64,000 bases of DNA, from NCBI GenBank assembly GCA_039621445.1, contig CP154954.1, positions 32,589,455 through 32,653,454 on the forward strand, in the 5' to 3' direction. The translations under genes were made by a program, and so were the position numbers. Origin of the DNA: Euglena gracilis (lineage: Eukaryota). The notes under the pieces were generated by a model. It was not told the DNA's origin, did no database searches, and saw only the letters and a program-made list of their open reading frames with translations. Below are positions 11,600 through 58,904 of this stretch, piece by piece. Every line of letters starts with the position of its first letter. Position 1 is the stretch's first letter.

Positions 11600-11679
11600 C
11601 ACCTCGGGCTCCGCACTTTGCCATTTTGAGGCCAGATTGTGCACTGAAAAAAAGGGGGGGCCAGAGCATTCTCCAAAGA

Positions 11680-12905: not shown

Positions 12906-12967
12906 ATTTGTGAACTGTTGTGTTTGAGCCATTGAAAAATTTTGGGGTCTAAAGAATAATCCCCCCT

Positions 12968-13645
12968 TGTGCGCGGTCCGAGGGTGCCCGCCCCAAGGAG
13001 GGGTCCCAAGGGGGCCCAAAGGGGCCACGAAGGGCCGCGAGGGGGCACCAAGGCCCCCACGGGCCTTTTGAGACCACACTGGCCCCAAAGGGGGCCCCAC
13101 AGCCCATTTTGACCAAGCCAAGGGAAGGTAAAGGAGGGGGCAGGTTGAGGGGGCCAACAGGCAACCCCCAAGGGGATGCGCAAGCCCTGCTGGGCTTTGC
13201 GCATGCATGCGCACCCCCTTGGTGGGCGCTCAGATGGCGCAATTCATTAAGAATTGCGCAAAGTATACCAAGTAGCCCCCCCCAGCTGTAGCCCCCCTCC
13301 AATTGTACATTTTCTGTTCACAGGGCTCTGTTCACACTCTGTCATTGTGTTCACCAATTGTTTTCTTGCAAGTCAATTCAAGGACTAATCAAGGAAATAC
13401 AAATAACAAATTTCAAGTTCAAGTCTCATTGATCAAGAATTCAAGTTCATTTGTTGAGACAAAAGCATGTCTTTTACCCATTATTCAACATCTCCATCTA
13501 CACCAACACCCACCCCTACCCTACTTTTTCAACAAGGGGAAAACCCCCACCAGGTGGGCCCGACGGGCTCAAATTTTAACGATCCCACGCGGGTTGCGCC
13601 GCCAGGGGTCCCTTCACAGGGACCTCAGGAGGGGCAACCCTTACA
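12968..13645 (+). repeat. Element B 5' LTR
   Basis: TGTGCGCGG...CCTTACA, repeated at 44182 and 55009. Confidence 0.95.
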
Positions 13646-13657
13646 TGGTAGCAGAGG
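13646..13657 (+). promoter_or_regulatory. Element B primer-binding site (initiator tRNA-Met type)
   Basis: TGGTAGCAGAGG immediately after the LTR, complementary to the eukaryotic tRNAiMet 3' end CCUCUGCUACCA. Confidence 0.9.
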
Positions 13658-15624
13658 AGGGTTTCAGCCCTCTGGGCTCACACTATGTGGGCCTGGGGAG
13701 CCCAGACTCCCAGATTATGAATCACAGGAGGACAGCGACGAAGAAGCAAGCCACAGCCATGACAGCCCCAGCCATTGCGGCCAGGGCCAGCAGCTCCTGG
13801 CCTTTGCCGGGCATGCCCAGCCGGACCCCCAGCAACCAGAACCATCTGGGTCCGGCATGGCATTGCCCAGCAGCCTGGGACTGCTCTCTGGCATGCCCAG
13901 CTTGGTCATGTCAGGGTTTGTGCATGACATGACCAGGCAGGTCATGTGGCAATTTGCAATGCGAGGGAAGATCAAAGAAGAAGAGGAAGAACGAGCAGAA
14001 GAAGAAGACGAAGAAGAATTTGCAGGCCATGCCCAGCCCCTTCTATTGGAGGCGGGGCCCTGGCGGAACCCTGGGGATGCCCGGCCGGCACATGCGCCGG
14101 TGAGCCATGTCGGGTCTGGGCATTTCCCAGCTGGACCCGACCATTGCTCGCTGGTGCATGCCGGGCCCGGTCATGATGGGCCCCAAGGACATGCCCCAGA
14201 CGGAACCACCCAATGGCAGCTGCAGGAGCTGCCCCCAGCAGGGGAAATGGTGGAGGACGAGGACCAGACGGCCCAGGGGGGGTTGGTGCCAGAACAGAGC
14301 CCGAAGGGGAGGCACCCCCCGAACCCCCCCCAGAGGCTGTGGGAGGAGGCGGAGGCACAGGCCGCTGCCTCAGTGGTTCTGGGGCAGGAGATCCAGCGGT
14401 TGGATGGTTGGGTTGGCGACCTGCAAAGTCGGCTTGCTGAAGCGGGGGCCACCACAGCTGCTTCAGTTAGCCATCTGGAGCAGTTGGTGTCCTTGCAGTT
14501 TCAGCGGGTGACAGAAAATTTTCAAGGAGTGGTGGGGCAAATGGAAAGCACCCAGGCTGGGCTAGCGTCCCAGCTCGCCGAAAACTTTCAGAAACTGCAG
14601 GATAAACAAATGCAAAATTTTGCTGGGGGGATGACAGCCCTCAGCGAGCTGGTGACCAGCCGGCTGAGCGAAAGCCTCGGGACGGTGGCCCAACTAGCCC
14701 AGCGGGTCCAGGGGCTCGAGGCCATCGCCAGCCAGGGTCACCAGCCAGCTGAAGGGCAGGGGTTCAACGAGGCGATGGCTGGGCGGGTGAAAAATTGTGA
14801 GGAGCTGCTCATCACCTCCGTCCGGACGACAGAGGAGGTGATGAGGAGCCAGGAGCTGGCCAGCGGGCGTCAGCAGGCCCAGGCCGAGGCCTTGGACCAA
14901 AAATTAAACCAGCGGACGGGTGAACTCGGGGGGCTGCGAGAAAAAAATGCAGGGATTGCACAGGCCCTGCAAAATTTTCGAGCAGAGCTCGACGGACAGG
15001 CCACAGCCATCGCTGAACAACAAGGGACCATAAGGGAAGACATAAGGGAGCTAAGGGCCAGGGCTGAGGGGCAGGGGCACAGCCTGCAGGAGCTGTGGGC
15101 CGAGGTCACCACCCACGGGCAGGTGATCCAGGCCCACAACGCCCTGCTCCTGGAGGTGGACTCAACAATAAAGGGGGTACCAAAAGAAAATGCCGAAATA
15201 AAAAATCGGCTTTCCGTTTTGGAAATCAAAATCGAAAATTTTGAAAAATTTTGCCCCCCCATCCAAGAGCTACCAGGGCCACCCAGAGGAGTGGGGCCGG
15301 ATAGCGAAGACCCCCAAGGCCCCGAAGCCAGAGTGCCCCCGGCAACCACAGACCAGACACAGCCCATGCCGGGGGCCCAGAGTGCCAATGGCTCGGGTGC
15401 CGCGGGGGGCAATATGCCTCCTGGCCCCCAGCACCAGCTCCCAGCCCATCCCAGCCTGCTGGGAGGCAAGGGACCTGTGGCCCCCCAGGGGCTCTCTGCT
15501 GGCCCCAGCAGCGGGGCAGCGGAGACAGTGACCCAAATTCCCGGGGAAGTGGTATCCCCGGGCCCAGCTTCTGTGACTGCAGTTTTTCCCAATGGGTTTT
15601 CGGGTTCTGGCCCCCAGAGACCAA

Positions 15625-15765
15625 GGGGCAGCCAGCCCCCGGGTCCCATGGCTGCGGGGGGCAGCCTGCCCCAGGGCCCCACGGCTGCGGGGGGCAGCCA
15701 GCCCCAGGGTCCCAGGGCTGCGGGGGGCAGCCAGCCCCATGGTTCCATGGCTGCGGGGGGCAGTC
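15625..15765 (+). repeat. 33-bp coding tandem repeat x4 (GSQPxGPxAAG)
   Basis: ggggcagccagccccngggtcccanggctgcg units. Confidence 0.85.
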
Positions 15766-16579
15766 CAGTCCAGGTCCCCGCTGCTGGAGGGACCCCAGCT
15801 GCCCAGCGTTCGGGTTTCAGGGGGTGGATTGGGAAGAAGCGGAACGCCAGATAAAAGCTCACGGATTTTTTTAATTTTTTGGCCATGTTGGGAGCCCAGG
15901 AGCAGCAGCAACAGTCTCAGCAACATTCACGAACAACGGGACAGTCCAGCACAGCGAAACCACAGGCAGCAGGCACAGCAGATCTACAGGGCCAGGGCAG
16001 GGATCAACCTGGGGTGAAACCAGCCGAGCACCAGTGGCCCCCCCCCAGCCCCGTGGGTTCCCCGCAGGAGGGGAGTTCACTGGGGCAATGGACCCTTTCG
16101 CTTGGGCCCCTGAGGCTGGGGCAGCATCGTGCAGCGCTGCCCCTCTGGCCTTTGGGTCCCAGGACACGGGAGCCTGGGTCCGGGGGGTCCAGGCAGCTCC
16201 GGTCCACGTGGCGCCAGCAGTCCCCAGCCCAGCAGCCAGCATATTTTTGGGGCCGCTGGCGAAACTCCCCACCAAAGACCTTGTAAAACCAGAGCTGAAA
16301 GGGGATTTTCATGATTTTTCGGTAAAATTTCAGCTTTACATGCAGCAGGTTTGCACGGGACAGCCAGTGAGGGAGGAATTTAAAATGCTTGTTCTGACCG
16401 GCTGCCTGGACCACAGCAGCCGGCTGGAACTCCAGCGGCGACAGGAAATGGGGGAACGGGTCCGGTTCCAGGATTTTTGGAACGGGCTGGCCCAGAAATA
16501 CGGCGGTGACATCCAGGCCTCGCTGCATGAGCAGCTCAGGGCCGGCCCTCAGACCGGTTAACACGGGTAAGTTAACCCT

Positions 16580-17038: not shown

Positions 17039-17999
17039 AGCCCGGGGCAAAAGGGGAAGGGGTTCGGCAAGGGAGCTGGCAAGGGCGGCTCAGAGCCAGG
17101 TCCCCAACCCCTCACCCAGCCACCAACAGGGAACAAACCTCCCCGAGGAGCCCCCGGAGTGGCCCCTTGGTGGACCAGCCCTGCAGCCAGTGCGGGGCCA
17201 CAGATCATTGGTCTCGGGAATGCCCTGGAAAAAATGTTATGAGTGTGGGAAAACGGGACATCTGGCACGATATTGCTGGTGGAGAAAGGGAAAGGGGAAG
17301 GGGGCGTCCACACCCCCACGGCGGGGGAGTGCCTGAAAAAGCGGGGGCCAGAAGGGAGGGGACGGGGACCCAGGGTGCCCCCAGCACGGCCCTCGGAAGG
17401 GGGGTAAGGAACAGGCTCACGGAGAGGGTTGGGTTTTGGTCAAGGGAAGGTCCAAAGGCAGATCCGGACCTGAACCTGCACGGTCCCCCCAGCCCCCCCT
17501 GACTGAGACACGAAAAGGGGCTGGGGGGGCCAGCAGGCCCTCTCATTCGACTCTGCCAACCCCTGGTCTGCGCTTTTCACCAGTGAGGGCAGGCCAGGGG
17601 GGGGCTCGGGTCGGAGTTCAGATTCGGGACAAAGGGGGAAGGGACACAAGGCGGCTGGCCCTCCGCAGCAAGCCGCCCAGGGGTCTTCGGGGTCCAGCAC
17701 ACCCGGTCTACCGCAGATCACAACACCAGGAAGGGAGGGGAAAAACACAAAACAGAAAAAGAAAAAACAAAAAAACAAAACGCTCTCACAGGCATCAATC
17801 AGGGAGGCAGCGAGGGAGGTCATCAACGTTCCCCAAACTATCAGGGGCATGGATGAAACCGCCCCCAGCACGGAAAGGCATTCAGGTTTTTCGATTCGGC
17901 AGGTGAGGTGCGTCAGGACCGCACCTTCCACCTCAACCCCCACACCACCCCCAGCACCACTCCCAGCCCGTTCCTCAGGGTTTGGGAGGTCGCCCTTCC

Positions 18000-18410
18000 G
18001 GTGGATCTCCCAGGACCACCACGTCCGGGAGGAGTACGTCAGGGACGTACTCCGCCGCCTGGGGGTCCAGCCAGAGGTCGACGCCTTTTCTGCCAAAGAA
18101 AACCGCAGGTTTGTCCGCTGGTGGGGGCCAGGGAGTGGGGAAGGGGAAGATGCCTTCAAACAGGACTGGGGCAGGGAGGTTTTGTGGATCAACCCACGTT
18201 ATAAAAAAATACAGCATGTTCTCGAAAAAATCAGGAGGGATCAAGCCCACGCCATCCTGGTGATCCCCAGGTGGCCGGGGCGGCGTTGGTACAGGGAGGC
18301 CAGGGGCTTGTCAGTGCGCCAAGTCACGTTCCCTCAGGGAACACGATTTTTCGGCAGAGGGGAGGAGTTGTGCCGGGGACCAAGTGGCCCACCACAGCCT
18401 TTTTGCTGTG
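18000..18410 (+). pseudogene. Element B Dam-like N6-adenine DNA methyltransferase domain
   Basis: EVDAFSAKENRRF (SAM-binding region), DAFKQDW, LWINPRY (NPPY-like, 18191-18202), AILVIPRWPGRRWY; same motif order as the DIRS MT domains in this window. Confidence 0.8.
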
Positions 18411-18579
18411 TGGGCACCCAGACCGGTGCACGCTGGAGGAGGTGATACGAAGGGGGAGGGAGAAAAAAAACAGGTTCGGGACACATTTTTCAGGGCCACC
18501 CCCAGGGACCGGGGGGGCCACAGGGGAGGTCAAGCCGGCACACCTGGGGCAGGTGGGGAGAGCGGACCAGCCAAGGCGG

Positions 18580-19180
18580 ATGCTGGACCTGTTCTGCGGG
18601 ACAGGTTCAGTAGGGGACGTCTACCGCAGCCTGGGTTACCAGGTCACGTCGGTGGACGTGGACCCCAGGTGGCGGCCAGACATTTGTGTTGACGTGCTGA
18701 AATGGAATTTTAAAAAACAGTTTCAGCCGGGGTATTTTGAGGTGGTGGTGTGCGGGGTCCCCTGCACCGAATTCAGCCTGGCGCTGACCACCAGGGAACG
18801 AGATTTAAATTGGCTGATCGGCTGGTGCAGCGGGCCCTGGCCATCATCAGATACCTCCGCCCACGGCGGTGGTGGCTGGAAAACCCCCGGTACGGGTACC
18901 TGCGGACCCGCAGGTACATGGCAGGGATCCCACACGTGGACGTGGATTACTGCCAGTATGCAGACTGGGGCTACCAGAAGCCCAGCCAGGATATGGGGCA
19001 GCCCCCATGTCCTGGGTCTCCGGCCACGGGTGTGTGACGGCCGGACCTGCACCAACCTGGAAAGCCCAGTACCGGAGGGGGGACGAAAGGGACGGCACAA
19101 AATTCGGCTCAGCAGCAAACACCAAAACCTGCCCAGGCACCTGAAATATCGGAACCCAGAGGCACTCATCCGTGACCTGG
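18580..19180 (+). pseudogene. Element B C5-cytosine DNA methyltransferase domain (2 frameshifts)
   Basis: MLDLFCGTGS (motif I), SVD, GVPCTEFS (motif IV), WWLENP (motif VI), VDYCQYADWGYQKP (motif VIII region). Confidence 0.88.
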
Positions 19181-19289
19181 CCACAGCACCGGCACCGGAG
19201 GCCCACGCTGCCGGGTCTCCGGAGCCAGAGCGGGACCCCCAGACAGAGCGAGGGGTGCCCTCGGTCTTGCTCCGTGAGGTGGGGCGGGG

Positions 19290-19377
19290 TGCCAGTGAAC
19301 GGCAGCTGCTGATGCGGGTGCAGGCCAGCGGGCCAGACGGACAGACCCACTTCATCAACGCCCTCATTGACACAGGG
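19290..19377 (+). pseudogene. Element B aspartic protease, N-terminal half
   Basis: QLLMRV...INALIDTG; continues as AEVNLV at 38350. Confidence 0.88.
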
Positions 19378-19977
19378 TATCGGCTGCCGCTGGCGTCGGC
19401 AGCCAAAAAATTCCCAAAAATTCCCAAAAAACCCCCGGTAGGAATAACCAAAGCAAGTCAACCGCCACGCGAGTGGAATTGGAACCCCAGCAAATTCCAG
19501 GAAGAATTTTCAGAATTCGATTTGAGAATCACAGAAGTAGAAAAGTCAATTGAGAATTGAAGAATCAAAAGAGACAATTCCAAAGAAGCCAAGGCATTCA
19601 TTTCCATGTTATTTTTTCCTCTCAACTCCTGAACTCAAAGGTACTCACCTACCCTCTCCAGCCAGGTTTGTTTTGTGCTGTGATTTGCTCACCTAAGTAG
19701 GTGGGTTGGTTTTGTCATTGTTGAATTTCATCCTGAAAGTTCAAAGTTGGAAAATGGGAAAAAACCAACAATGGAGGGAAAAAAAGATCCTACGCGGGGC
19801 AACTGCGGACCCCGGGTCGGGGGGGGCACACCTCACCCCCTTTACCGCCGGTTGGCATCTTCGAAAACGGGGCCCAATTTCAGAAAGGCCCTGGCCTGAG
19901 CCCTCCAGGGCCGGAAAAAAGTGGTTGCGGCCCCGGCAGCCCCCCCGGGGGGCGAGCGGGGTCCCCGACCCCCAACA
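19378..19977 (+). repeat. Element C 5' LTR
   Basis: TATCGGCTGCC (TG in other copies)...CCCCAACA. Confidence 0.93.
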
Positions 19978-21056
19978 TGGTACGCAGAGGTGGCTTCACT
20001 GACTCTGTCAGTGAAGAATTTTTAGATTCCGTTGATGAAAAAGAAATCAAAGAATACTGTGACCAATTCAAATTGTTGGGAATTGAATTCAGTGATACCC
20101 AAACAGAGGAACAAAGAAAAAGGGAAGCTGAACTTCTGGCGTCTCAGAGGGAGTTTTGGAAACTCAGATGTGAAGCAGCCATTGGACATTCTCATGGCCC
20201 TGACTCATCTTCTCCATGTCAATCTTGTAAACCATCAGGGGTAAGCCCAACAAGTTCACTGCCAGGAGAACCTGAAGTTAAAAAAGAAAGTTTTGACCCT
20301 TGTCCAAATGTTTTGCAAATGAGACGTGTGCGGTGTGAATCTGAATCCGGACAGCTGAGTGTCAAATCAGACAGTGTGGAAACTTCAGAGGTCACAAAAC
20401 CTGAAACTTTTTATGACCCTTGGGATGAGTGGTGGCAAAAAGTTGAGGCAGGTATCACAGAATTGTTTTCAAACACTTTTTCTCTGAACGAGAGACTGAC
20501 GAAACTGGAGGAAGTGCCCAGCCAAAGTGAGTCCAGCCACTTGGAGGGACGGATGGCTGAAATTGAAACCCGTCTGAGAAATTTGGCAGATGGTTTTCAT
20601 GACCTTTTCACACGAACTTGCAGTGAAATCGAAAATCGTTTTTCTGAAAGGATCCAGTCCCTGTGTGAGAAGGGCGAGGCTCTGTAAAAACGGCTGGAGA
20701 GTGAAGAAAAGATCCTGGAGGAACGGCTGAAAATGCTTGAACTACAAATCGCTGAAAAGTTACAGCCCAGTGAAATTAAATTACCAAGTCCAGAAAATTT
20801 TATGCCTGTGAACCTGACTTCTGGGCATGTCACAAATTTGCAGCCGTCATCAGTGTCTTCTGAGAAATCTTCCTCAGATTTTGCCGCACAGCCAAGGAAA
20901 TTAAGACAGGCAAGAAAATTCTGGAGACCTGCCAAAAACAGCTGGAACGACTTTCAATTTTTGAGTCCAAGTTGGTTTCAAGATTGGTGGGGCTGGGACT
21001 GGCGTTTAAATCCCTGGAACAGCTGGGGGTGGTATCCACCGTATCAGTGGTGGTGA
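19977..21056 (+). pseudogene. Element C ORF, unknown acidic/coiled-coil protein with Trp-rich tail; one in-frame stop
   Basis: ORFs 19977-20687 and 20733-21056 share a frame, separated by TAA 20685-20687. Confidence 0.5.
19978..19990 (+). promoter_or_regulatory. Element C PBS (tRNAiMet-like, 1-nt insertion)
   Basis: TGGTACGCAGAGG. Confidence 0.75.
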
Positions 21057-24000
21057 TTTTTCTTTCAGCACAAGTCTAACCACTGACTGGCACCGCACAG
21101 CACTTTACAGTGATCAGTATGTTTTTGTGGTTTGTTTGTGGCTTTGTTTTTTTTTGTTTCATACGTCTCATGGTGATTTGGTGTTGGAGGCAGATGCGCA
21201 ATCAGCCAGAATTTAAATCTGGATTTTCAGTTCACAGAGTTTGGCTTATGGAAAAACAGCCAAGTCAAACATTTTGAATCTGGTTTCTGGGGTGCATGTT
21301 TTTTCCCCAGTTGCTTTCCACTTAAATGGAGACGCCCAGCCACGATGCTTGGGATTTTTCTCCTAGTGTTCAGGCAGCCAGATCAATGATTTCAGTTTCA
21401 TTTTCAGTTTCAGGGTTTTCAGTTTTCAGTTGTCCCAAATGTCATTGGGGCGGGGCACGGCATTGACATGTGTCACCATCCCAGACGGGGACAAATCAGG
21501 CATTTCAGGTGGGATCATTGTTTGTGTTTTTGCTGGTCCTTTTTGTCACGGGACAGTTTTTCCAGAGAGAAACTTTACCCCGGACAAGGACACATGTTGG
21601 AGAATCGGCACAGTTTTTGGGATTTTCAGTCCAGTTTCATAGTGGTTTTCGAGTGTGGCAGCCCAGCAGTCCTGTGGCAGGATTTATCTGGGTTTTTGCC
21701 AAATCCTGGGGTCGGGGGGAGACCTCCGATGGACCACTCGAACCAAAAAGTTTTTTGGAAAGCGCGCAAAGAGGGGTTCCAATGGTGGGGCTAGACCCAG
21801 GCCAGGAATAAACACCCCTGTGGCCACCCATCTAAGGGCTCAGGAAAGGTTTCAATTTTCAGTCAGTGGGAACCAAGGTGGATAAACCCAGGAGGAAAAG
21901 ACACCCCTGAGGTAAGTCCATTTTTGGGCCCATCAGTGGCATCATCATCATTTAGTTCAGTTTTTCAGTGAAAAATCTGTTGATCTGTGGGTAACACTTT
22001 CTGTTGCATTTTTTTCAGCTGTAGGAGTCTGCTTAAGGGAGAATCACATGAGGCCTCACAATGCAAAACTCCTGAGGGCAATTTTTACAGTTTTGGGGCT
22101 TGCATACACAGTTTTCGTGTGACCCATTTGATGGATCAAGATAAGATTTTTAAGTGCCGTTTTGGTTCAGAGTTCAGTGGCATTTTCAGGTTCGGTTCAA
22201 TGAGAAAATTCAGAAATCTGCCTTCTGTGTTGCCATGGTGAATTTTGTGCGTGTGTGTATGCTTTGTCATGCAGGTTCAAGCAATCAATCAAACAGCAGC
22301 ACCGAAGAGAATCAACGCAAAAGAATTTGAGAATTTCAAGGTTGATTTGTTCAACAAGTTCAAGTTTGTTGACTGGGACAATGATGATTACATTGACATT
22401 GAACTACATTGAGAGCTAAAACAGACAATTCATCAAGTAATTTGATTGAATCAATTGAATTCAAAGTTGCAACAGTTTGAGAATGAATTCAAAGACTGGG
22501 ATTTTGAACATTGGAATGAGATGGAGAACAGATTTCAATGACATTAATGAGATCCAAGCAATTGACTCACATGATTACAATTGTCATGATTGAAATGCTG
22601 GGGAGAGAAGCGTAATGGCTGACCCCAAAGAGCCTGCAGTGGGCAGTGGCCCGATGCACGGCCAAAGCCCAGGTCCAGGCCCAGGTTGGCTGCTCCCACA
22701 GCGCTGAATCAGATTTTTCATGTTTTTGGGTCTCAGAATTTCGCTTGTGGTTTGGAGCCAGTTTTTCTCCCCTCCTGGTGCAGCTGGGGGGGGGGGGGCT
22801 GTGTTTAGCCATGTTTTTTGTTGGTGTGGTGGATCAAAATCAGTTTTGGCTCTACGGTTGGAATTTTTTGACTTAGAATTGGATACCCCTGTGAGACGTT
22901 TGGGTGGGGACAGGAATGCATCATTTTGTGACCGTGACTGTTTTTGGTCACACCCCAGATTGTGACGGGGTTTGATGAAATTTCCATTTTTCCCATTTTA
23001 TTTGTCGAATGGGGATTCTGATTTTGCAGCCAGGAATTTTTAACCCATGGCCCTCCCCGCATTGGTTGACGGTGGGGGGAGGGGGCATTGTGCATTGTGA
23101 AGACCCATCCTTTGAGGAGGATCAGTTTAATTTCAGCCGGTTGGGACATTACGGCCCAGGTTTGTGAATTTATTTTTTGTTTGGAGGCTGAAGCCAGATT
23201 GCCCCCCATGGCCCCATGTGATTGGGGGGGGGGCAGCGAAAAATCGCTTTGGCTGAGAAAATTGGATTTGAATTTTCAGTATTTTTGAGTTTGCCATGTC
23301 ATTTGACCATTTGACCCCCATTGCCCCGTGTGACTGGGGGGGGGGGGGGCAGTGAATTTTAATTGGCAAGCCAGATTTGTTGGTTTTACGGCTCCAGTGA
23401 ATCGGTTGGGCCCAGGGTTGAGCTTGATTGGCCTGGCCTGGCCCCTATGCAACGGTATGCTGCTGGATGTTGCTTCTGTTGGGTTGGTTGCGCTCGGTTG
23501 GACTTTGTTTGTTGTACATGGCAGTTGGAATTTTGGATCTTGTTGAGGGCTTTTGTAGGCCCTGGGTTGGACTCAGATTTTTTGATTTTTTTGAGGATTT
23601 TTTGTTTCTGGAGGATGTTTACACAAAGAGTTGGAAAAAACCTGGGATTTTGATGATTTTTCTGGAGGATGAAAAAACGAGTTGGGATTTTAAAACTCAG
23701 TTTTTTGATTCGGTTTGGACTATTGGATATTGGTCAAAGGCATTTTTTCATGGAACACAGCTTGGAGGCATCCGAACTCGGGGGGGGGGGGGGACGCTGG
23801 ACCGGAGATGACCCCTCCTCCGTCCAAAGGCCCTGGTGTGGGCCATTAAAAAAAAAAAACACCAGCCACGTGGGCACCAAAGCCCTGTGATATAGTGGCT
23901 GAGGGCCAATGTGAAGCCCTGTTCCCTTTGCGTTCAAAAAAAAATCGGCCCAGTCGTTTCGGTTGGAATGCATGACAAGGAAGTGAGCGTGCATACACAC

Positions 24001-24173
24001 AAAACACACAACCGCACACGCACACGAACCCGCACACCCTTGTACACTATTCCATATAACCGTCTCACCTTTTCACTGTTGCTCACCGTTTGCTTTTTCT
24101 TACCCTCACCGTTTCACCTTTTCTGTCCCGAATTGGAAAGGAATGCCTAGGTTTCTGGTTTTCTTTTTCCCAC

Positions 24174-25281
24174 TGACGACCTTTTGAGGTCGACCGCCGG
24201 GCGGCGGAGTTTTTCCCTTTTAGAAGGCCTTTTTAAGGGCGGTTTAGCTCTAATTTTAAGGCTTTCTAAAGATTTCCATTAAAATTCCCTCTCCTAGGGC
24301 GCCCATGGTTTGGTTGTGCAAGGAGAGAGATTGAGTGATGCTAGGTATTCCCAAAGGGAGATTTTGGGTCTATTTAGCATATTTTTAAGCTTTTTATGCA
24401 TTTTTCCTTTGGTTTTAAGGGAAAATGTTGGATTTGGTGAGAGCGCTTGCAAGCGCTTGGAACAGAATTTTAAGAGATTGGCGCCTGAGTTCCTGGAGTT
24501 TTTGCAGGGGTTTGCAAAGCTCAATAGTGATGGAATTCAGCATAATTTATCAAAATCAAGGGGGGAAACCTTGATTTTGACCTGGGTTGGTTGATTTTGA
24601 TGCAATGGGCAAGAATTTGGGATTTGAGAGCGCTTAGGAATCAGCGCACTCAATCCTAAATTTAACTGCCCATCAAGGGCATCAAAATCACTTTCTTTTC
24701 ACAGGGTTTTCCTCTTCACTTGTTTCACCACTGAATTTGTTGTGTCAATTACAACCAATTACATTCAATCATTGAACTTGGATTTACAGTTGGAATTGCA
24801 AATGGAAGGACAACAAATCAATCAAGAAAGCTCAATTGAAGAAGGTGAGGTTTGTCTTCCCCCCACCTCATCTGTGGGAAAAGGGGCAGGGGGGTGGGAC
24901 TCCTCAAATCAAGCAACCACAGGCCAATTTTCACCCCAAAACCCCCTTTTTGGCCCAGAAACTGTGAGAAATGACACCCAGGGTGGGATGTTGGCTCTCA
25001 CTGGCTCAGCTGAGCAGGGAGGGGTCGAAACCCCAAAGGCACCCCCCTTGGAGATCCCAGTGACACCCCCCTCAGGGGTCGGGAAGGGTCCACTGGGAGG
25101 TTCCTCCTTGGAAATGATGGCCCAGTTTCGGCCACAGGGGGGGCCAGAATGGGAAAAAATTTCCGACACAAGTCGGATCGAGGAGCCAAAAAAACGATCC
25201 TACGCCGGAAACTGGCCCGGGGCGGGGGTTTCCGCTTCACCCCAGTGCTGCCGAGGGACATGGCAGCACGGGTGTGAAACA
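24174..25281 (+). repeat. Element A 5' LTR
   Basis: TGACGACC...GTGAAACA, repeated at 36173 and 46994. Confidence 0.95.
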
Positions 25282-28200
25282 TGGTAAGCAGAGGTTTTTC
25301 ATTCAGCCTTCTGTCGGAAATTTTGGGTTGCAAATCCCTGCTCAGAATGTTTTCTTTGATGATCAGCCATTGGCCCAATCTCAGATGGCAAATCTGACGA
25401 TTGGAGTATCGGGGAACAGAGAGTTGGGACCCGAAACCAGTTTGGCTGAACTCAGAACCCCCACAAATATGGGACAGATGTTGGAATTTCAGGGTGGGGA
25501 TGGCCAGGTTGTCATTTCCAACCAACCGTGTTTTCCAGAGCCTTTTTCAGGGGTTTTGCCTTTGCAAAATATGGGGTACGGTTTTGTGCTGCCTGGGTTG
25601 CAACCTCTCCCGGACTTTTCATGGGTGCAAAATTTAGGGAATCTGCCATCATTACCCGCTTTTGCATTGCCTTTGCCTCCAGCTCAACCAGTTTCTTCAA
25701 CACCAGCCCAAGAGCCGGTGGCACTTTTGCAGTTTTCCCAACCATCCCAGGTAGATGGGCTGGCGAAGGAAACGGGAAGTGCCTCGGCAGGGCAGGGGGG
25801 TGATAACCCCAGCCCAGTTTTCTTTGAAAAGCAAGCACAGGTCAATGTGCTGGGCTTAAACAATAATAATAACTGGGACAGCAGCGAACGGGTCAGAGCA
25901 GAAGTCGAGCAGGCAGAGGAAAACCCGAAGGACCAGCCAAGCTCTACTTCTGCTCGGCGACCCCGAACACCAGCTTCATCACCAGGCAGTGATGAAGTTC
26001 TGCAAAAACGGCTGCACCGTGAGGTTGATCACGGTCAGCCAGCAGCTGCTGCAGCCCCCCAGCCTCCTAATATTTTCATCGAGGGGGGTGAGGAGGAGGT
26101 CCAACCCCCAGCCTATGAAAGTTCTGAAGCCACCCCCAGGGGGGATTCACAAAATCAGGGATTTGAAGACCCCTGGGGGCAATTTTTACAAAGTAACAGA
26201 GACCTCCAGTGGACTGTGCAGCACCTGACTTTTCGGGTTTTGGCTTTGGAAAAAGCCAACGAAGAGTGGGTTCTGCAGCAGCAGCAGCAACAACCCCCCG
26301 CTGTTGACATCCACCTGGTGGAGCACATGGCTGCACGAATCGAAGAAACGGCCAGGGCTGACTGCCTGCAGATTTTTGAACTTTTTGAGAAAAAATGTGA
26401 GGCCCAGGTGCAAATTTCTGTGCAAAAAATTGACGCACAGGCACTTGAACTTTTTGTCGGGCAGGAAAAAAATTTTGAGAAAAAACTGGCCCAGCAGTTT
26501 TCTTCGAGCCGTGATCAGTTTTTGGCCCTGAGGCAGGGATTTTTACGAATTTTGGCCAGCCTGCCACAGGAAATTTTTAAGCAGGTGCAAAACCAGGTGG
26601 CTGCCTTACCGATTAAGGATCTCGTACTTGAAAATTTTCAGCGGTTTGCTGAGAATTTTAAAGCCGCCCAGCCAGCTCAGGGGGGGGAGGCAGAAACTCT
26701 CCAGGAGCTGGCCGTTGTCGCTGCCAAAATCGTTGAAGTTCAGGCTGACCTGGTATTGCTGCGTAGTACGGTACAGGGCCAGGCTCAGCAGCTCCAGCAG
26801 TTCGCTGATTATGTTCGCCAGCTGGGTTAACAAAATTCAGCGATGAATACAGCCCTCCATGGTTTTGGTGGGGGTATTCAAAAACTGCACCAGAATATTT
26901 CAGATGAAGTAGGGAAACGACACTCAGAAATGCAAAAACTGTTGACGGATTGTCAGCAGAATTTTCAGAGTGTTTATCAGCAGATTTTTTCCCAGGAGAA
27001 GAAATTTGGTGGGCTGGTGGAGGAATTAAGGCAGGGACTTGCAAAAGTTGGGGGGAACACTTTCGAGTTGCAGAAAGTGTTGCAGGATTTACAAAAAAAT
27101 GGGCCCGTACACCCAACTGCCGAACCGAGAGGGGTTTTGCAGAAAATTTCTGACATGTGGTGGCTGCGGCAGGGCAGCCAGCAGCCCCTACACCCAGTGG
27201 AGCTGCCACAGCCTGGGCAGCAGCTGGCCCAGCAGCCCGTCGTCCAGCTGGCCCAGCAGCCTGGCCAGCCAGCAGGCCAGCCGCAGCCTGCTCACGGGCT
27301 GCCAAGAGGGCTGAGCCTGCCGTCGGCTGGACAGCAGCAGCCCCTGGGGCAGCCTCAGTCCAGCTCACTGGCCAGCACGGTGCCCAGTGCTGACCCAGAT
27401 TTTTCAGATCAGATTATTTCTCAAAATAAATCTGCAGGTTCAAACATTTCCCCTCCTTTAGTTATTGAGGGGGGATTTGTTTTGGAGGACATGCAAGACA
27501 CAGCAGTGGTTTCTTCTGTGTCATTGTGTGTCCCCCCACATGTTTCTGCAGCCCCTGCTTTCTCGATTAGGCCCATCGGGACAGGGGGGGCTGCAGCCAA
27601 CCCAGGTAACGGGTTGGGTTTCCCTTTCATCGGTGACCCAGTAGCTTTTGAAATTTTGCAGGGAGGTGCTAAGCTCTATTTTGATGAATCGGGCAGCATT
27701 TCCTGGCAAGATTTTGAAGTAGATTAGAATCTTTACTGGGACAGGTTGACATCAGGGAAACCGTATTCTGATTTGCAAAAGCTGCAGGTTTTTGAGGCAT
27801 GTTTAGGACCCAGATTAAGGGAGGAAATAAGGCTCTATCGGCTGAATGGAGCCAAATTAAGTTACCCCGCCATATTAGCCCAATGCCAGAACCGTTATGC
27901 CTCGAGTAAGGGGCTGACGGCTCGGAAAATATGGCAGGAGGTAACCATGGTTAACGAAGGAAAAATAACCCGGGCTGATCTGCAAGAATTTTGGATTAAA
28001 TTTTGCAGTGCCTGGCACCATGTGAAGGATGCCACAGCCGGGGAGGCTCGGAGATTATTTTTGGAAAGAATTCCTCCTTTTTTAAGCAAGTTTTGCATAG
28101 AAGAGGAGGATAACCGAGCCCGTAAACAACCCATTGTCAGGCTCACAGGGATACCAAATCCCACGGTGGATGGGATTAAAAGGAATGTGAGCCAGATCAC

Positions 28201-28994
28201 TGGGGGGATTGATCCACGGAAAGTTGTTATCAAAAACCCTGGTGCCATTTGCCTTATTTATTTCAGTTCTTCGGAAGAGGCACTGAAATTAACAGCCGTA
28301 AATGGAAGGAAATTGCAGGGAATGGAAAATTTCATCAACGCCGAATTGGTGGAACAACTAATGACTGTTGAGGAAATGTTTGCTTTTGCCGAGGGCAAGT
28401 TAGCTCTTCGGGAGAAGCAGGATTTGGCTTTGAATCAGCACCATTTTCCCAGATTATTCAGCAAATCGACAACAAAAGGCTCGGGGAAAATACAGGTGTT
28501 GGAAAAAGGCCAGACCCCCCCGGTGTCCCCAACATCCGTTTCAGCACCAGCAGCTGGGGGGCAGGGTCACACCTCAAAGTCTGCTCCACAGCCAGCTGCG
28601 AAAGAGGATAAGGGGCCAGCTCAGCCAGCCCCACGCGGCAGGTCCCCTTCTTCGACTTCACGGCCAGGTGCAGCTTCATGGTCGCGAACCCAAAGTCCAG
28701 CAACCCCAGCCCGGCAAGGCAAGGGGGCAGACCTGGACACCGCAGGCATCGGGTAGGGGCAGGTCCCCATATCCATGCTTCAACTGTGGGGAGTGCGGGC
28801 ATTATTTTTATGAGTGTAACAAACTGCTGAGTGAGGCCCTTGCTAAATCTAAGGATTTTTGGCAAAATAATGGAAAAGGCAAGGGGCAGCCCAAGGGTAA
28901 AGGGCAGCCAGCCTCACAGCGAAATTCCTCAGGCAAGGGGGGTGCATGGTCAAAGGGGGGTGGGCCCACCTCTTCTCCCCCTGGGGCCCAATAG
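24802..28994 (+). pseudogene. gag: Element A gag, very long, with 2 in-frame stops and frameshifts
   Basis: ORFs 25274-26830, 26843-27727 and 27746-28756 are in one frame; CFNCGECGHYFYEC knuckle at 28776-28817; upstream ORF lies in the LTR. Confidence 0.8.
25282..25294 (+). promoter_or_regulatory. Element A PBS (tRNAiMet-like, 1-nt insertion)
   Basis: TGGTAAGCAGAGG. Confidence 0.78.
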
Positions 28995-29108
28995 GGGGGC
29001 CAGGGGCAGTTTGAGAAGGGGGGGGCTGCCCATGGCTGTGTCTCTCCCCCCTGTGAGGAAAATGGTGTAAATATTTCTGATTCAAAAAACTGGGCTGTAC
29101 AGGATTTT

Positions 29109-30299
29109 ATGGCTGATTCAGGGTGTGGTGAAAAACATTCTTTGGATCAGCCCCCCAGATTTTTGAATCGGACTCGTTACTCCTGGAGGGAAGGAAAATG
29201 TTCAAGGGTTCCCGTTTTGCATTCAAACCTGCCACAACCTGACCCCCTGCCATCAGCTCAGCGACCTCAGGCGTTAGATTTATTCGCTGGCACAGGTTCG
29301 GTGGGGCGGCGGTTGGCAGAACGGGGGTATGAAGTTTTGTCAATTGAAAATGCTCCTTGGACGGACTTCCACCCCCACACAGACATTTTAACCTGGAACT
29401 ACAGGCGATACCCGGTTGGATTTTTTGAGGTTATTGCCGCTAGTCCCCCCTGTAATATTTATTCCACAGCTTATAACCCCAGTCCGAGGGATTTCTCCCA
29501 GGCGGATGCCCTGGTGGAGAAAGCCCTAGAAATTATAAATTATTTTCAGCCCAAGTTGTGGTGGTTGGAGAACCCCCGCACTGGTCTCTTGCGAAATAGG
29601 GAGGTGGTGAAAAACCTGCCCTATATCGACATTGATTATTGTCAGTTTTCAGATTGGGGTTATAAAAAGCCCACACGTTTCTGGTGCTGCCCAGCCATTT
29701 CACAATTACGGTCGGTGTTGTGTGATGGCGAATCATGTCCTAACCTGGTGATGGGGGACAATGGGCAGTTCCGGCACCGTGAATTGTTGGGGGGCATAAA
29801 AATGAAGTTTACCCCCCGACAAAAAGGAAGAATACCCCCCCTGGTGATTGATTATCTCCTAAGTGCTGGGGATTTTCTGGGGGGGGGGCAGCCCAAAGAA
29901 ATTTCCCAAAATTCCCAGGACTTTGAGGAATGGGAAATTCCAGACCGTTGTTGTCATTTGGCCAACACCTTGAAGGTTAATCAGGTGTTGCCCATTGAAA
30001 ACGAGCTGCAACTTTTGATGCTATCACAGACGTATCTCCCTAACGGAGATGCCAGGCAGCTCAGAGTTTTGGTTGACACGGGAGCCCAGGTGAACCTGGT
30101 CAAAAGGTCCATCGTTCCAAAACATTTGGCCAGGTCACCGCGAATGCCAATTCGGCTGGTGGCTGCCAACGGCCAATGTGTTTTGGGGGGCGACCAGTGT
30201 ATAAGGTTGGAGTTGGGTTTTCAACGCAGGGGTACGGGCAGGGGGGCACCCAGGCCTTGTACCTCGAAGGGGAATTCTACCTCGCGGATATTGAGGTAG
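29109..30299 (+). CDS. Element A C5-cytosine DNA methyltransferase fused to aspartic protease
   Basis: LDLFAGTGS, SIE, TDI, ASPPCNIYS, WWLENP, IDYCQFSDWGYKKPTRFW, then VLVDTGAQVNLV in the same frame. Confidence 0.9.
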   Translation: MADSGCGEKHSLDQPPRFLNRTRYSWREGKCSRVPVLHSNLPQPDPLPSAQRPQALDLFAGTGSVGRRLAERGYEVLSIENAPWTDFHPHTDILTWNYRRYPVGFFEVIAASPPCNIYSTAYNPSPRDFSQADALVEKALEIINYFQPKLWWLENPRTGLLRNREVVKNLPYIDIDYCQFSDWGYKKPTRFWCCPAISQLRSVLCDGESCPNLVMGDNGQFRHRELLGGIKMKFTPRQKGRIPPLVIDYLLSAGDFLGGGQPKEISQNSQDFEEWEIPDRCCHLANTLKVNQVLPIENELQLLMLSQTYLPNGDARQLRVLVDTGAQVNLVKRSIVPKHLARSPRMPIRLVAANGQCVLGGDQCIRLELGFQRRGTGRGAPRPCTSKGNSTSRILR

Positions 30300-34267: not shown

Positions 34268-35524
34268 AAAAGGGGGAAAAGGAAAGGTGAAAAAGGGCCT
34301 GGAGTGGTTGCCGGGGGGGGAGGTCCCATTCTATGCCCCTTCACAGATGCAGGTGGACCCCATCACAGGGCTGAGGCCCTGGGAAAAATGACGGGAGTTT
34401 CCTCGTCATTGATTTCATTTTTTATTTCTCCCCTGAAATCTTCAAACACCACCACACCCTGGTTTGGGTGAGAATGGTGTGGGCAATCGAGGATATTTCA
34501 TTGCCCCGTTGATTTTTCTGTCATTTTCCATTGAACTCCCGTGAAAGGATTTCAAGGGTGAATGAAAGATTCTCGTGGCTAGGCGGAAACTAGCCCGGGA
34601 TGTTATTTTTTGCACGGGTGGGTGATTTCCAATCAAAGGATCCCACCCTGGAACGGGAAGGGAGATTGCCAACAACAACAAAAGCGAAACGTTGAATGAG
34701 TGCATGATTGCCACCCGTTTTGTTTATGTTGTTGTGGGTGGATTCCGGTTTGGAAGTTTCACCAAAAATTCTTAAAGAGGACAAACCACCGGAAGCACAA
34801 CCGAGGGTTTGTTCTTTTGACAACCTTCTCCAAGTATTGGGGGGGGGGGGTTAATGGCAATGTGGCTTTGAGGTTGCCCCGTCGGTTTGGCTCGGCTAAG
34901 CCACATTGCTAAATTTTCGGTGTGCATGGTTTGCCACCACACTAAGGGAAGGCAAACCGGCACCCAAGGAAGACGCCGAAGCCCATCGACTTGAACAACA
35001 ACAAAAATTGTCGAGTCAATGGCTTTGGCGACCATCACCACTTGGGGGCATTATTGCCCGTCCACCGTCATGGTGTTGAATTTATCCATTGGTGATGGTG
35101 TATTGTTGTATTATTGGGATTTTGGTTGTATTTTTGGTGTGGTCCCGTTTCGTCTGCCTACTCAGGTCCATCAACAAGGCTGAAGCAGCTGATTTTTGGT
35201 ATTGATGGACGAGGAGGTGGAGTTGATGTGTGAGCATGCGGAGATGGTAACTTTGCCGTCTGCCGTTTGCAACTCGCTCTGACCACTACACCTGTTCGCA
35301 CCTGTTTTCAAGAAAGAGGAATCTGTGATTTTTCATTTCTCCCTTCTCACGGGTCGGTGACACTCGTGGGGGAGTCCTTTTCTCCAATCGGTTTGATTGG
35401 GTTGTACAATCATACCCCACACCTTTGGGCAAGTGGAGCCCGAAACCCCGGTCAGCTTGATCGGGGGGGGGGGCGTGTTATCACTTCCAAAAAAAAAAGA
35501 AGTGAGTGGTCTTCTTCAACCTCC

Positions 35525-35806
35525 CCACCGGGGGGGGGGGGGGGAAGGCAAGCCCTCCCTTTGCCCGGGGGTGGGGCGGTTGCCCAAGGCTTTCTCCTCG
35601 GGGGGGGGCAAGGCAAGCCTCCCTTTGCTTGGGGGGGGTGCTTTCCCCTCGGGGGGGGGGGCAAGTCAAGCCCACCTCTCGCCGGGGGGGGGGGGGCAAT
35701 CTTCTCCCCAAGTCCTTCCCCTCGGGGGGGGGGGCAAGTCAAGCCCACCTCTCGCCGGGGGGGGGGGAAGCTTTTCCCCAAGGCCTTCCCCTCGGGGGGG
35801 GGGGCT
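35525..35806. repeat. G-run-rich tandem repeats in element A 3' region
   Basis: Repeated (G)nCAAGKCAAGCCC...CCCCTC(G)n units. Confidence 0.75.
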
Positions 35807-36161
35807 GATTTTCATCTATCACCGAAAGGATTTTTGGTGATAATGAACCCTCCATTCCCTTCACGGTTGGGAATACCGTGGGGGGGGGCTGATTTTTATC
35901 CATTCAAGAAAGGATTTTTTTTGAGTGGTGTTGGACCCCCACTTCCTTTCACGGTGGTGAGAACCGTGGGGGGGGGGGGGGGGGCTCGGTGTGGTGGAAC
36001 GGGATCTATGGGTTATAGATTCCTCCTCACCATTACGCCACCACTTATTCACATTGCCGAACAATGTTGTCGGAATTGCGTTGCAAAAATTCAAAGTGTC
36101 TTTCATTCCCATCCCAAGGAAAGCGAGAAGGAGGGGGGGTGAAACCCCTGACTTTCGTCGC

Positions 36162-36172
36162 AAGGGGGGGAG
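36162..36172 (+). other. Element A polypurine tract
   Basis: AAGGGGGGGAG abutting the 3' LTR. Confidence 0.85.
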
Positions 36173-58850: not shown

Positions 58851-58904
58851 CCTTTAGACCCCCAAACTTTTTCAATGGCTCAAACAACAGTTCAAAATTT
58901 TCAT

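What the first reader, a model, noticed from the sequence alone, without database searches (positions are those of the whole stretch)
18000..19377. Ty3/gypsy chromovirus with tandem N6-adenine AND C5-cytosine DNA methyltransferases upstream of its protease
Seen: between the gag knuckle and the protease DTG of element B lie a Dam-like domain (VDAFSA..N, DAF..DW, WINPRY, LVIPxW...W) and then a C5-MTase (FCGTG, PC, ENP). Rejoining across the AGGG TSD gives gag-Dam-DNMT-PR-RT-RH-IN-chromodomain. Established: Dam-like MT domains are typical of DIRS elements, and C5-MTase-bearing retrotransposons are reported from dinoflagellates and charophyte algae. Inference: a gypsy element with both writers plus a chromodomain could mark its own cDNA with 6mA and 5mC (protection, host mimicry or self-regulation). 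I do not know of this dual architecture in gypsy but cannot confirm novelty. This copy is frameshifted and has NPRY instead of NPPY.
Basis: partly seen in the sequence, partly recalled or inferred. Interest (0 to 1): 0.92.

Follow-up and report, generated by a model that had tools for sequence, protein, structure and literature searches.

The report
Gypsy retrotransposon carrying two DNA methyltransferase domains
This is a broken copy of a very abundant gypsy-type retrotransposon that encodes both an adenine-methylase-like and a cytosine-methylase domain plus a chromodomain, an unusual design that a 2026 preprint has already described as "EpiLTR".

Summary
Element B is an LTR Ty3/gypsy chromovirus. 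Its LTRs lie at 12968-13645 and 44182-44861, with a CCCT target duplication. A nested LTR element flanked by AGGG splits it at 19377/19378.

Between two gag zinc knuckles and the protease DTG lie two domains:
- A Dam-like domain at 17987-18438.
- A compact C5-cytosine methyltransferase domain at 18568-19212.

Rejoining gives gag-Dam-DNMT-PR-RT-RH-IN-chromodomain.

Both domains score below the Pfam cut-offs in this copy. They are supported by homologues that pass the cut-offs, conserved catalytic motifs and predicted folds: the DNMT fold matches DNMT3/DNMT1/M.HhaI, and the Dam fold matches CAPAM, T4 Dam and EcoDam.

The segment is not a one-off. Thousands of contigs from other copies cover it evenly. 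Natural single-ORF homologues have the same order, and 26 of 156 retrieved relatives carry both domains.

The three frameshifts and NPRY are lesions of this copy.

The design is not new. A May 2026 bioRxiv preprint describes "EpiLTRs" (LTR + DAM + DNMT + chromodomain) in Euglena gracilis and Cymbomonas. Enzymatic activity is unproven; in that preprint, eukaryotic DAM domains gave no 6mA in E. coli.

The nested element A carries an intact DNMT but no Dam.

The parts
12968..13645 (+). Element B 5' LTR (678 bp, TG...CA). The CCCT target duplication lies at 12964-12967. A PBS-like TGGTAGCAGAGG follows at 13646.
   Evidence: Self-blastn gives 96.2-96.5% identity to 44182-44861 and 55009-55685. Ends were read.
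13458..15854 (+). Long N-terminal ORF of B (798 aa, low-complexity and coiled-coil-like). It is presumed to be a gag-associated region.
   Evidence: Translation. Pfam gave no match at its cut-offs. The assignment is by position only.
17182..17276 (+). Two gag zinc knuckles (CX2CX4HX4C) at 17182 and 17235, in two different frames in this copy.
   Evidence: Regex on three-frame translation.
17987..18438 (+). Dam-like (DIRS-type) N6-adenine-methyltransferase-like domain. The frame changes near 18374. The catalytic tetrad reads NPRY at 18191-18202 in this copy.
   Evidence: Pfam PF05869 scores 22.8 bits, E 7.9e-5, below the cut-off of 28.1. The family HMM gives E 3.7e-42. The model has pLDDT 89.7. 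VIA matches: CAPAM Z 9.9, T4 Dam Z 7.5, EcoDam Z 6.9.
18568..19212 (+). Compact C5-cytosine DNA methyltransferase domain read in three frames (18568-18810, 18801-19004, 18970-19212). Motifs I (FCGTG), IV (PC), VI (ENP) and KP.RIWG are present.
   Evidence: Family HMM gives E 2.2e-59 and 8.9e-31. PF00145 gives only E 0.043 here. Homologues P0011 (29.2 bits) and P0050 (25.3 bits) pass the cut-off of 22. The fold of the paralogous domain matches DNMT3, DNMT1 and M.HhaI.
19306..19377 (+). N-terminal part of B's aspartic protease, ending in ALIDTG at the break.
   Evidence: Translation. It aligns with the PR of P0005 and P0006.
19378..38345 (+). Nested insertion that splits B. Element C has about 600-bp LTRs at 19378-19977 and 37747-38345 and an AGGG target duplication. 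It itself contains chromovirus A.
   Evidence: Self-blastn. Junctions read.
38350..39240 (+). Rest of B's protease and the linker to RT. It resumes in frame with AEVNLVRRG.
   Evidence: There was no Pfam hit for this ORF. Identified by alignment to homologues and to A's pol.
39241..40903 (+). B reverse transcriptase and RNase H, with a frameshift between them.
   Evidence: RVT_1 68.1 bits; RT_RNaseH 73.3 bits.
41047..42429 (+). B integrase core and C-terminal chromodomain (42313-42429).
   Evidence: rve 34.2 bits; Chromo 25.1 bits, equal to the cut-off.
44182..44861 (+). B 3' LTR, preceded by the purine tract GAGGAGGGGAG. A second copy lies at 55009-55685 in the tandem duplicate.
29259..29867 (+). 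Intact homologous DNMT domain of nested chromovirus A, within ORF 28995-30299. It lies directly upstream of A's protease. No Dam domain was found in A.
   Evidence: Family HMM gives E 1.3e-76. PF00145 scores 18.1 bits, below the cut-off of 22. The model has pLDDT 92.3. Foldseek top hits are DNMT3A/3B at E 5e-9.

Best explanation
Window 12968-19377 plus 38350-44861 is one degraded copy of a very high-copy Ty3/gypsy chromovirus. Its polyprotein reads gag (two zinc knuckles) - Dam-like domain - compact C5-DNA-methyltransferase - protease - RT - RNase H - integrase - chromodomain. That is an 'EpiLTR'-type element in the sense of the 2026 preprint.

Shown here:
- The architecture.
- The homology and fold of both methyltransferase modules.
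- Their conservation across many relatives.
- The three frame changes and NPRY being lesions of this copy.

Inferred, not shown:
- In intact copies the two modules are made as part of gag-pol and released or kept near the nucleocapsid by the protease.
- The DNMT then methylates CG sites of the element's DNA (new cDNA or the integrated copy).
- The chromodomain steers integration into heterochromatin, which fits the nest-in-nest structure seen here.
- I rate DNMT activity likely, about 0.6. The motifs are intact and other retrotransposon DNMTs methylate CG de novo.
- I rate direct 6mA writing by the Dam-like module uncertain, about 0.3.
For: Anatomy:
- LTR pair, TG..CA ends, CCCT duplication, PBS and PPT.
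- RVT_1, RNase H, rve and Chromo in the 3' half.
- In-frame rejoin DTG|AEV across the AGGG-flanked insertion.

Dam-like module:
- PF05869 scores 22.8 bits here. It is found in 4 of 7 homologues and is above the cut-off in 1 of them, P0008 at 32.4 bits.
- N74 and P76 are nearly invariant and P75 invariant in 24 aligned sequences.
- The model has pLDDT 89.7.
- Best structural matches are N6-adenine methylases: CAPAM Z 9.9, T4 Dam Z 7.5, EcoDam Z 6.9.

DNMT module:
- PF00145 is found in 3 of 7 homologues and is above the cut-off in P0011. It is also above the cut-off in the intact 2513-aa polyprotein P0050.
- The catalytic Cys and Glu are invariant in 40 sequences.
- The model has pLDDT 92.3. There are 317 Foldseek matches at E<=0.001, led by DNMT3A/B/C, DNMT1, M.HhaI and M.HaeIII.

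Not a one-off:
- 13529 contigs of run X1 and 6490 of run X10 lie on 13646-19600 and cover 30 of 30 bins.
- One-base length differences among copies sit exactly where this copy changes frame (table 4).
- At the second base of the R codon of NPRY nearly all the depth reads otherwise, 261864 of 262108 in X1. Other copies therefore read NPPY (table 3).
- P0005 and P0006 are single ORFs with Dam-DNMT-PR.
- 26 of 156 retrieved relatives carry both domains.

Prior description and function of related elements:
- (the EpiLTR preprint).
- PMC5890265 abstract: retrotransposon DNMTs methylate CG de novo.
Against: - Neither domain reaches the Pfam cut-off in this copy.
- phmmer of P0006 against PDB sequences found nothing, best E 1.4.
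- Foldseek found no match at E<=0.001 for the Dam model. VIA Z values of 6-8 can reflect only the common Rossmann methyltransferase fold, as the tool's own note says.
- The DNMT fold was predicted for element A's intact domain, not for B's broken one. The two are 37-56% identical.
- The preprint reports that eukaryotic DAM domains lack the CD-1 and TR-1 parts of bacterial Dam and produced no 6mA in E. coli. It also reports that LTR expression in E. gracilis is low or undetectable.
- This copy is dead: frameshifts, NPRY, a nested insertion, and LTRs only about 96% alike.
- The RNA status of runs X15 and X16 is only a guess by the tool.
- The host organism is not known to me.
Confidence: 0.85

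Rival explanations
1. One-off chimera. A DIRS fragment carrying its MT domain, or a piece of a host methylase gene, landed in this single gypsy copy. On this reading the dual architecture is an accident of nesting or assembly.
For: The window is heavily nested. B sits inside a DIRS-like element whose own MT-like domain lies next to B's LTR. The preprint warns of nested insertions and assembly artefacts in E. gracilis.
Against: - Thousands of contigs from two DNA runs of different studies cover the Dam and DNMT bins as they cover the gag bins, 30 of 30 bins.
- Uninterrupted database ORFs P0005 and P0006 have the same Dam-DNMT-PR order.
- B's Dam is only 25% identical over 48 aa to the window's DIRS MT domain.
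Confidence: 0.02
2. The architecture is real, but the Dam-like module is not an active DNA adenine methylase. It would serve another role, for example binding nucleic acid, acting on RNA or RNA:DNA hybrids, or recruiting the host 6mA enzyme. Only the DNMT would write a mark.
For: - The preprint found no 6mA after expression in dam-deficient E. coli.
- It reports that the CD-1 and TR-1 parts are absent, and its own model invokes host AMT1.
- The best structural match here is an RNA cap adenosine methylase, CAPAM, at Z 9.9.
- The sister element A does without the Dam-like module.
Against: - The NPP triplet and flanking aromatic residues are conserved across 24 diverse sequences. This is hard to explain without catalysis or substrate-base binding.
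- DAM-LTRs are reported to be enriched for 6mA in three species.
Confidence: 0.4
3. The DNMT-like module is a degenerate or non-DNA methyltransferase, acting on RNA or inactive, kept only as a structural part of gag-pol.
For: - Pfam PF00145 is below its cut-off in most members: 2 of 3 hits among the 7 homologues, and A's ORF at 18.1 bits.
- Motif IV is PCTE/PCN rather than PCQ, and motif VI is ENP or ETP rather than ENV (the canonical forms are recalled).
- The target-recognition region is very short.
Against: - The catalytic Cys and Glu are invariant in 40 sequences.
- The top 40 or so structural matches are all DNA C5-methyltransferases at probability 1.00.
- Other retrotransposon DNMTs are active on CG (PMC5890265 abstract).
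- CpG observed/expected is about 0.5 across the window, as expected in a CG-methylated genome.
Confidence: 0.12

Closest known systems
EpiLTRs of Euglena gracilis (Fernandez-Moreno et al., bioRxiv 10.64898/2026.05.21.726589, May 2026)
   Same: Both are LTR Ty3/gypsy-like elements with a DAM domain, a DNMT domain and a chromodomain. The host genome there is heavily CG-methylated, which fits the CpG depletion here.
   Different: I could not see the figures or supplements, so the domain order of the Euglena elements is unknown to me. The window's host is also unnamed. Identity with that family is therefore probable but untested.
EpiLTRs of Cymbomonas tetramitiformis (same preprint)
   Same: A chromovirus with DAM + DNMT + chromodomain.
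   Different: There the DNMT is appended to the 3' end of pol. Here both methylase modules lie between gag and the protease.
KnitGypsy-Dnmt3 of Klebsormidium nitens; SymbioDIRS-Dnmt3 and SymbioLINE-Dnmt of Symbiodinium (de Mendoza et al. 2018, PMC5890265)
   Same: A retrotransposon-encoded C5-DNMT inside pol or ORF1. Self-methylation of cDNA was proposed, and de novo CG methylation was shown for those DNMTs.
   Different: Those carry Dnmt3-type or orphan DNMTs and no Dam domain. The preprint places the EpiLTR DNMTs elsewhere, as sister to DNMT4. I did not test the DNMT phylogeny.
MT (Dam-like) domain of DIRS retrotransposons
   Same: The same domain family: VDxFA ... W.NPP[YF] ... P.W..W. A DIRS-like copy with such a domain lies in this window at 58858-59346.
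   Different: B has LTRs, an rve integrase and a chromodomain, not a tyrosine recombinase. Its Dam is only distantly related to the window's DIRS MT, 25% over 48 aa.

Membership tests
EpiLTR (LTR retrotransposon with DAM + DNMT + chromodomain) | LTR Ty3/gypsy backbone (LTR pair, PR-RT-RH-IN) | tested here: met
EpiLTR (LTR retrotransposon with DAM + DNMT + chromodomain) | DAM (PF05869-like) domain in the polyprotein | tested here: met
   Weak Pfam hit, family HMM E 3.7e-42, fold. Homologue P0008 is above the cut-off.
EpiLTR (LTR retrotransposon with DAM + DNMT + chromodomain) | DNMT (PF00145-like) domain in the same element | tested here: met
   Family HMM. P0011 and P0050 are above the cut-off. 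The fold of the homologous domain was checked.
EpiLTR (LTR retrotransposon with DAM + DNMT + chromodomain) | Chromodomain | tested here: met
   PF00385 scores 25.1 bits, equal to the cut-off, at 42313-42429.
EpiLTR (LTR retrotransposon with DAM + DNMT + chromodomain) | Belongs to the Euglena DAM-LTR clade, with its DNMT sister to DNMT4 | not testable with these tools
   No reference sequences from the preprint are at hand.
Ty3/gypsy chromovirus | Order PR-RT-RH-IN with the chromodomain at the integrase C-terminus; 4-5 bp target duplication | tested here: met
Dam N6-adenine DNA methyltransferase (PF05869) | Profile match at the curated cut-off | tested here: inconclusive
   This copy scores 22.8 bits, below 28.1. 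Relatives score 21.5-32.4 bits, and 1 of 7 is above the cut-off.
Dam N6-adenine DNA methyltransferase (PF05869) | Catalytic (D/N)PP(Y/F/W) tetrad | tested here: not met
   This copy reads NPRY. Other copies and all five homologues with the domain read NPPY or NPPF. The family meets this feature; this copy does not.
Dam N6-adenine DNA methyltransferase (PF05869) | Adenine-N6 methyl transfer to DNA | not testable with these tools
   The preprint reports a negative E. coli assay for related domains.
C5 cytosine DNA methyltransferase (PF00145) | Profile match at the curated cut-off | tested here: inconclusive
   B's piece scores 13.7 bits and A's ORF 18.1 bits, both below 22. P0011 at 29.2 and P0050 at 25.3 are above it.
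C5 cytosine DNA methyltransferase (PF00145) | Motif I FxGxG, motif IV Pro-Cys nucleophile, motif VI Glu | tested here: met
   FCGTG, GVPC and ENP are present in B. C70 and E109 are invariant in 40 sequences.
C5 cytosine DNA methyltransferase (PF00145) | C5-MTase fold | tested here: met
   Shown for element A's homologous domain: pLDDT 92.3, top matches DNMT3/DNMT1/M.HhaI at E about 5e-9. B's broken copy was not folded.
DIRS retrotransposon | Tyrosine recombinase instead of a DDE integrase; inverted or split terminal repeats | tested here: not met
   B has an rve integrase and direct LTRs.

The most novel reading that the evidence does not exclude
The preprint's two host species may understate the group. 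The window's family would then belong to a large, old clade of chromoviruses, seen mostly in unnamed environmental sequence.
- 4035 cluster representatives match at E<=0.001.
- In this clade a compact DNMT sits ancestrally at the gag-protease junction.
- The Dam-like module has been gained, lost or moved repeatedly. Four arrangements of Dam and DNMT relative to the protease occur among 26 dual-domain proteins, and a Dam-less sister, element A, lies in the same genome.

Such shuffling would mean the two modules act as separate, protease-released enzymes. It would also offer a natural within-genome experiment, B-type against A-type copies, on what the Dam module adds. A conserved Cys3-His cluster in the DNMT's short target-recognition region could be a zinc site peculiar to this clade.
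Probability: 0.3. Interest if true: 0.6.

Novelty: already known. Interest (0 to 1): 0.4.

Why it matters
Retrotransposons that carry their own writers of two DNA marks plus a chromatin reader show that mobile elements can manipulate the host epigenome rather than only suffer it. That point was made in a May 2026 preprint, so this window adds a worked example rather than a discovery.

It does add some details worth having:
- The exact module order: both methylases lie between the nucleocapsid knuckles and the protease.
- The lesions of this copy are private to it.
- A related Dam-less, DNMT-bearing chromovirus is nested inside it.
- The family is very abundant in its host and has thousands of relatives in environmental data, with shuffled module orders.

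Tried and rejected
- Whole-genome search: no genome is held for this window, so no copy census or intact-ORF count was possible.
- phmmer of P0006 against PDB sequences found nothing useful, best E 1.4.
- Foldseek of the Dam model against PDB gave no match at E<=0.001. The wider VIA search was used instead.
- Rfam on the whole window gave 0 matches, so there is no host RNA gene to name the organism.
- ESM Atlas with element A's DNMT ORF gave best scores of 0.77, for small phage DNA_methylase clusters. That is below the tool's 0.9 line and is a lead only.
- Earlier findings of this scan: nothing by place, sequence or words.
- Cluster look-up of ten relatives: the only named member was M569_12700, labelled Genlisea aurea, in line with the two Genlisea-labelled hits. 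The other nine were unnamed ENA or JGI sequences. I suspect, but did not test, that the Genlisea records are contaminant protist DNA.
- Expression: X15 and X16 are only guessed by the tool to be RNA. I draw no conclusion on transcription.
- Recent capture of B's Dam from the DIRS-like family in the window: rejected, 25% identity over 48 aa.
- A Dam domain in element A: none was found by the family HMM.
Full report
**Window structure**

A self-comparison of the window and reading of the junctions show a stack of nested retroelements.

- Element B has 678-bp LTRs at 12968-13645 and 44182-44861, 96.2-96.5% alike, with TG...CA ends.
- A PBS-like TGGTAGCAGAGG follows the 5' LTR, and a purine tract precedes the 3' LTR.
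- B has a 4-bp CCCT target duplication. It is exact against the flank of the second 3' LTR copy at 55686. The flank at 44862 reads CCAT.
- B is split after 19377 by element C (19378-38345). C has about 600-bp LTRs and AGGG on both sides.
- C in turn contains a 13-kb chromovirus, element A, with 1108-bp LTRs at 24174-25281 and 36173-37277, 98.9% alike.
- B itself sits inside a DIRS-like element.
- The stretch 34322-45124 is repeated in tandem at 45128-55949, 98.5% alike.

**The observation**

- The Dam-like stretch is VDAFSA, DAF..DW, WINPRY, LVIPRW. It lies in the frame of 17507-18445 and continues after a frame change near 18374.
- The C5-methylase motifs are spread over three frames. DLFCGTG and GVPCTEFS come first, then WWLENP after a change near 18803, then KP.RIWGS and KYRNPEALI after a change near 18985.
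- ALIDTG ends at 19377, and B resumes in frame at 38350 with AEVNLVRRG.
- Two zinc knuckles lie upstream, at 17182 and 17235.
- The 3' half carries RVT_1, RNase H, the rve integrase and a chromodomain.

**Are the two domains real?**

Directly, Pfam is weak for this copy. Dam PF05869 scores 22.8 bits (E 7.9e-5) against a cut-off of 28.1. PF00145 gives E 0.043 on one piece and nothing on the other two.

Relatives settle the question.

- A word-indexed search with the 451-aa frame returned 7 proteins at E<=0.001 among 7999 scored candidates.
- PF05869 is found in 4 of these 7, and is above the cut-off in P0008. PF00145 is found in 3 of 7, and is above the cut-off in P0011.
- P0050, an intact 2513-aa polyprotein, has PF00145 above the cut-off together with RT, RNase H, integrase and chromodomain.
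- HMMs built from these seven proteins hit B's Dam at E 3.7e-42 and its DNMT pieces at E 2.2e-59 and 8.9e-31.
- In 40 aligned DNMT domains the motif IV Cys and the motif VI Glu are invariant.
- In 24 aligned Dam domains the N-P-P triplet is invariant or nearly so.

Predicted structures agree.

- The DNMT domain was modelled on element A's intact copy. The model has pLDDT 92.3. It gives 317 Foldseek matches at E<=0.001, led by DNMT3A/B/C, DNMT1, M.HhaI and M.HaeIII.
- B's Dam domain has pLDDT 89.7 but no Foldseek match at E<=0.001.
- The wider structural search puts three N6-adenine methylases among the top six rows, with other Rossmann-fold methyltransferases between them: CAPAM Z 9.9, T4 Dam Z 7.5, EcoDam Z 6.9.
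- The tool itself warns that Z values below 8 can reflect only a common fold.

**One-off or family trait?**

No genome is held for this window, so I used public sequencing runs instead.

- Fourteen DNA runs of one coded organism hold about half of the sampled words of 17600-19377.
- On 13646-19600, 13529 contigs of run X1 and 6490 of run X10 lie at 85% identity or more. The two runs come from different studies. They cover 30 of 30 bins, and the methylase bins are covered like the gag bins.
- One-base length differences among copies sit at the three places where this copy changes frame.
- At the second base of the arginine codon of NPRY, nearly all depth reads another letter. Other copies therefore read NPPY.
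- P0005 and P0006 are uninterrupted natural ORFs with Dam-DNMT-PR.

The frameshifts and NPRY are lesions of this one copy.

**Breadth of the family**

An exhaustive search with P0005 found 4035 cluster representatives at E<=0.001, 1684 at 1e-10 and 246 at 1e-30.

Of the 156 proteins retrieved (P0005-P0160), 26 hit both of my HMMs, 8 hit only Dam and 122 hit only DNMT. Most of these proteins are fragments.

Among the 26 with both domains, the orders were:

| Order | Count |
|---|---|
| Dam before DNMT with no protease between them (the protease is downstream in P0005 and P0006, and upstream in P0080) | 12 |
| Dam-PR-DNMT | 6 |
| DNMT before Dam | 7 |
| DNMT-PR-Dam | 1 |

The protease was recognised only by a crude motif. 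One of the ten clusters looked up carries a name, labelled Genlisea aurea, as do two of the seven hits (P0010, P0011). All other proteins in those two listings are unnamed ENA or JGI sequences.

**Element A**

Nested element A is a related chromovirus. Against B, its RT and RNase H are 54% identical, its integrase 46% and its DNMT 37-56%. It has an intact DNMT in the same position, directly upstream of its protease. No Dam domain was found in it. The DNMT is therefore shared by both lineages, while the Dam module is variable.

B's Dam is only distantly like the MT domain of the DIRS-like element in the window, 25% over 48 aa. It was not captured recently from that family.

**Prior art**

*de Mendoza et al. 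2018 (PMC5890265).* I read the outline with abstract, section 6 and keyword passages. The paper describes SymbioLINE-Dnmt, SymbioDIRS-Dnmt3 and KnitGypsy-Dnmt3. It mentions Dam-like domains only for DIRS elements.

*Fernandez-Moreno et al., bioRxiv 10.64898/2026.05.21.726589, 22 May 2026.* I read the abstract, sections 7-11 and keyword passages. I did not see the figures or supplements. The preprint reports the following:

- DAM domains moved from DIRS into Ty3/gypsy elements at least four times.
- It names 'EpiLTRs': LTR elements with DAM, DNMT and a chromodomain.
- They occur in Cymbomonas tetramitiformis, with the DNMT at the 3' end of pol, and in Euglena gracilis, with a different configuration.
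- Eukaryotic DAM domains lack the CD-1 and TR-1 parts and gave no 6mA in dam-deficient E. coli.
- E. gracilis is methylated at nearly all CG sites and expresses its LTR elements weakly.

A full-text search for 'EpiLTR' finds only this preprint. A search for Euglena gracilis, retrotransposon, DNA methyltransferase and genome assembly found three papers. By their titles and abstract openings in the listing, the other two are not about such elements.

**Host**

Several features are compatible with Euglena:

- CpG observed/expected is about 0.5 throughout the window.
- GC content is about 50%.
- The copy number is very high.
- The architecture differs from the Cymbomonas type.

I could not test this. 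It is an inference.

**Mechanism**

*Shown here:* the architecture, conserved catalytic motifs, methyltransferase folds, abundance, and nesting into other repeats.

*Inferred:*
- Intact copies express both modules within gag-pol.
- The DNMT methylates CG in the element's own DNA, as proposed and partly shown for other retrotransposon DNMTs (PMC5890265 abstract).
- The chromodomain directs integration into heterochromatin.
- The Dam-like module either writes 6mA on replication intermediates or helps recruit the host enzyme. This is the preprint's model and is unproven.

**Verdict**

The design is striking, but it was already described a few months earlier in a preprint. This particular copy is a dead, interrupted one.

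Noticed in passing
window 24174-37277 (DNMT ORF 28995-30299): Nested chromovirus A has 1108-bp LTRs that are 98.9% alike. It carries an intact 434-aa ORF holding a zinc-knuckle-adjacent DNMT domain and the start of the protease, followed by a 1396-aa pol ORF (RT, RNase H, integrase, weak chromodomain). No Dam domain was found, so it is a DNMT-only sister of element B.
   Followed up: partly
window 57972-60176 (+), and 11244-12967 with 44862-45124 / 55686-56504 (-): Two copies of a DIRS-like element lie in opposite orientation, 91-96% alike. Each has an RT ending in YLDDILL and a DIRS-type MT-like domain at 58858-59346 (family HMM E 1.3e-5). Element B is inserted into the minus-strand copy close to its MT-coding part.
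   Followed up: partly
window 34322-45124 and 45128-55949: A 10.8-kb tandem duplication, 98.5% alike. It spans the end of A, C's 3' LTR, B's whole 3' half, its LTR and 263 bp of flank. It could be a real segmental duplication or an assembly artefact.
   Followed up: no
window 12964-12967 / 55686-55689 and 19374-19377 / 38346-38349: B's target duplication (CCCT, which is AGGG on the other strand) and that of element C (AGGG) are the same four bases. This may hint at a shared target preference, or it may be coincidence.
   Followed up: no
window about 18939 (table 7): Contigs of two runs from two coded organisms (X15, X16) match from 18939 onward. Upstream of that point they share the same 190-nt or so unrelated sequence. 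This suggests a recombinant or differently interrupted variant of the family.
   Followed up: no
DNMT domain, positions C133, C160, C165, H178 of window:29244-29909: Three cysteines and a histidine in the short target-recognition region are invariant or nearly so in 40 sequences. They may form a zinc site. Geometry was not checked in the model.
   Followed up: no
P0010 (record labelled Genlisea aurea): This 1621-aa protein reads gag knuckle - Dam - PR - degenerate DNMT - RT - RNase H - second DNMT. It is the only relative seen with two DNMT modules. The plant label may reflect contaminant protist DNA.
   Followed up: no
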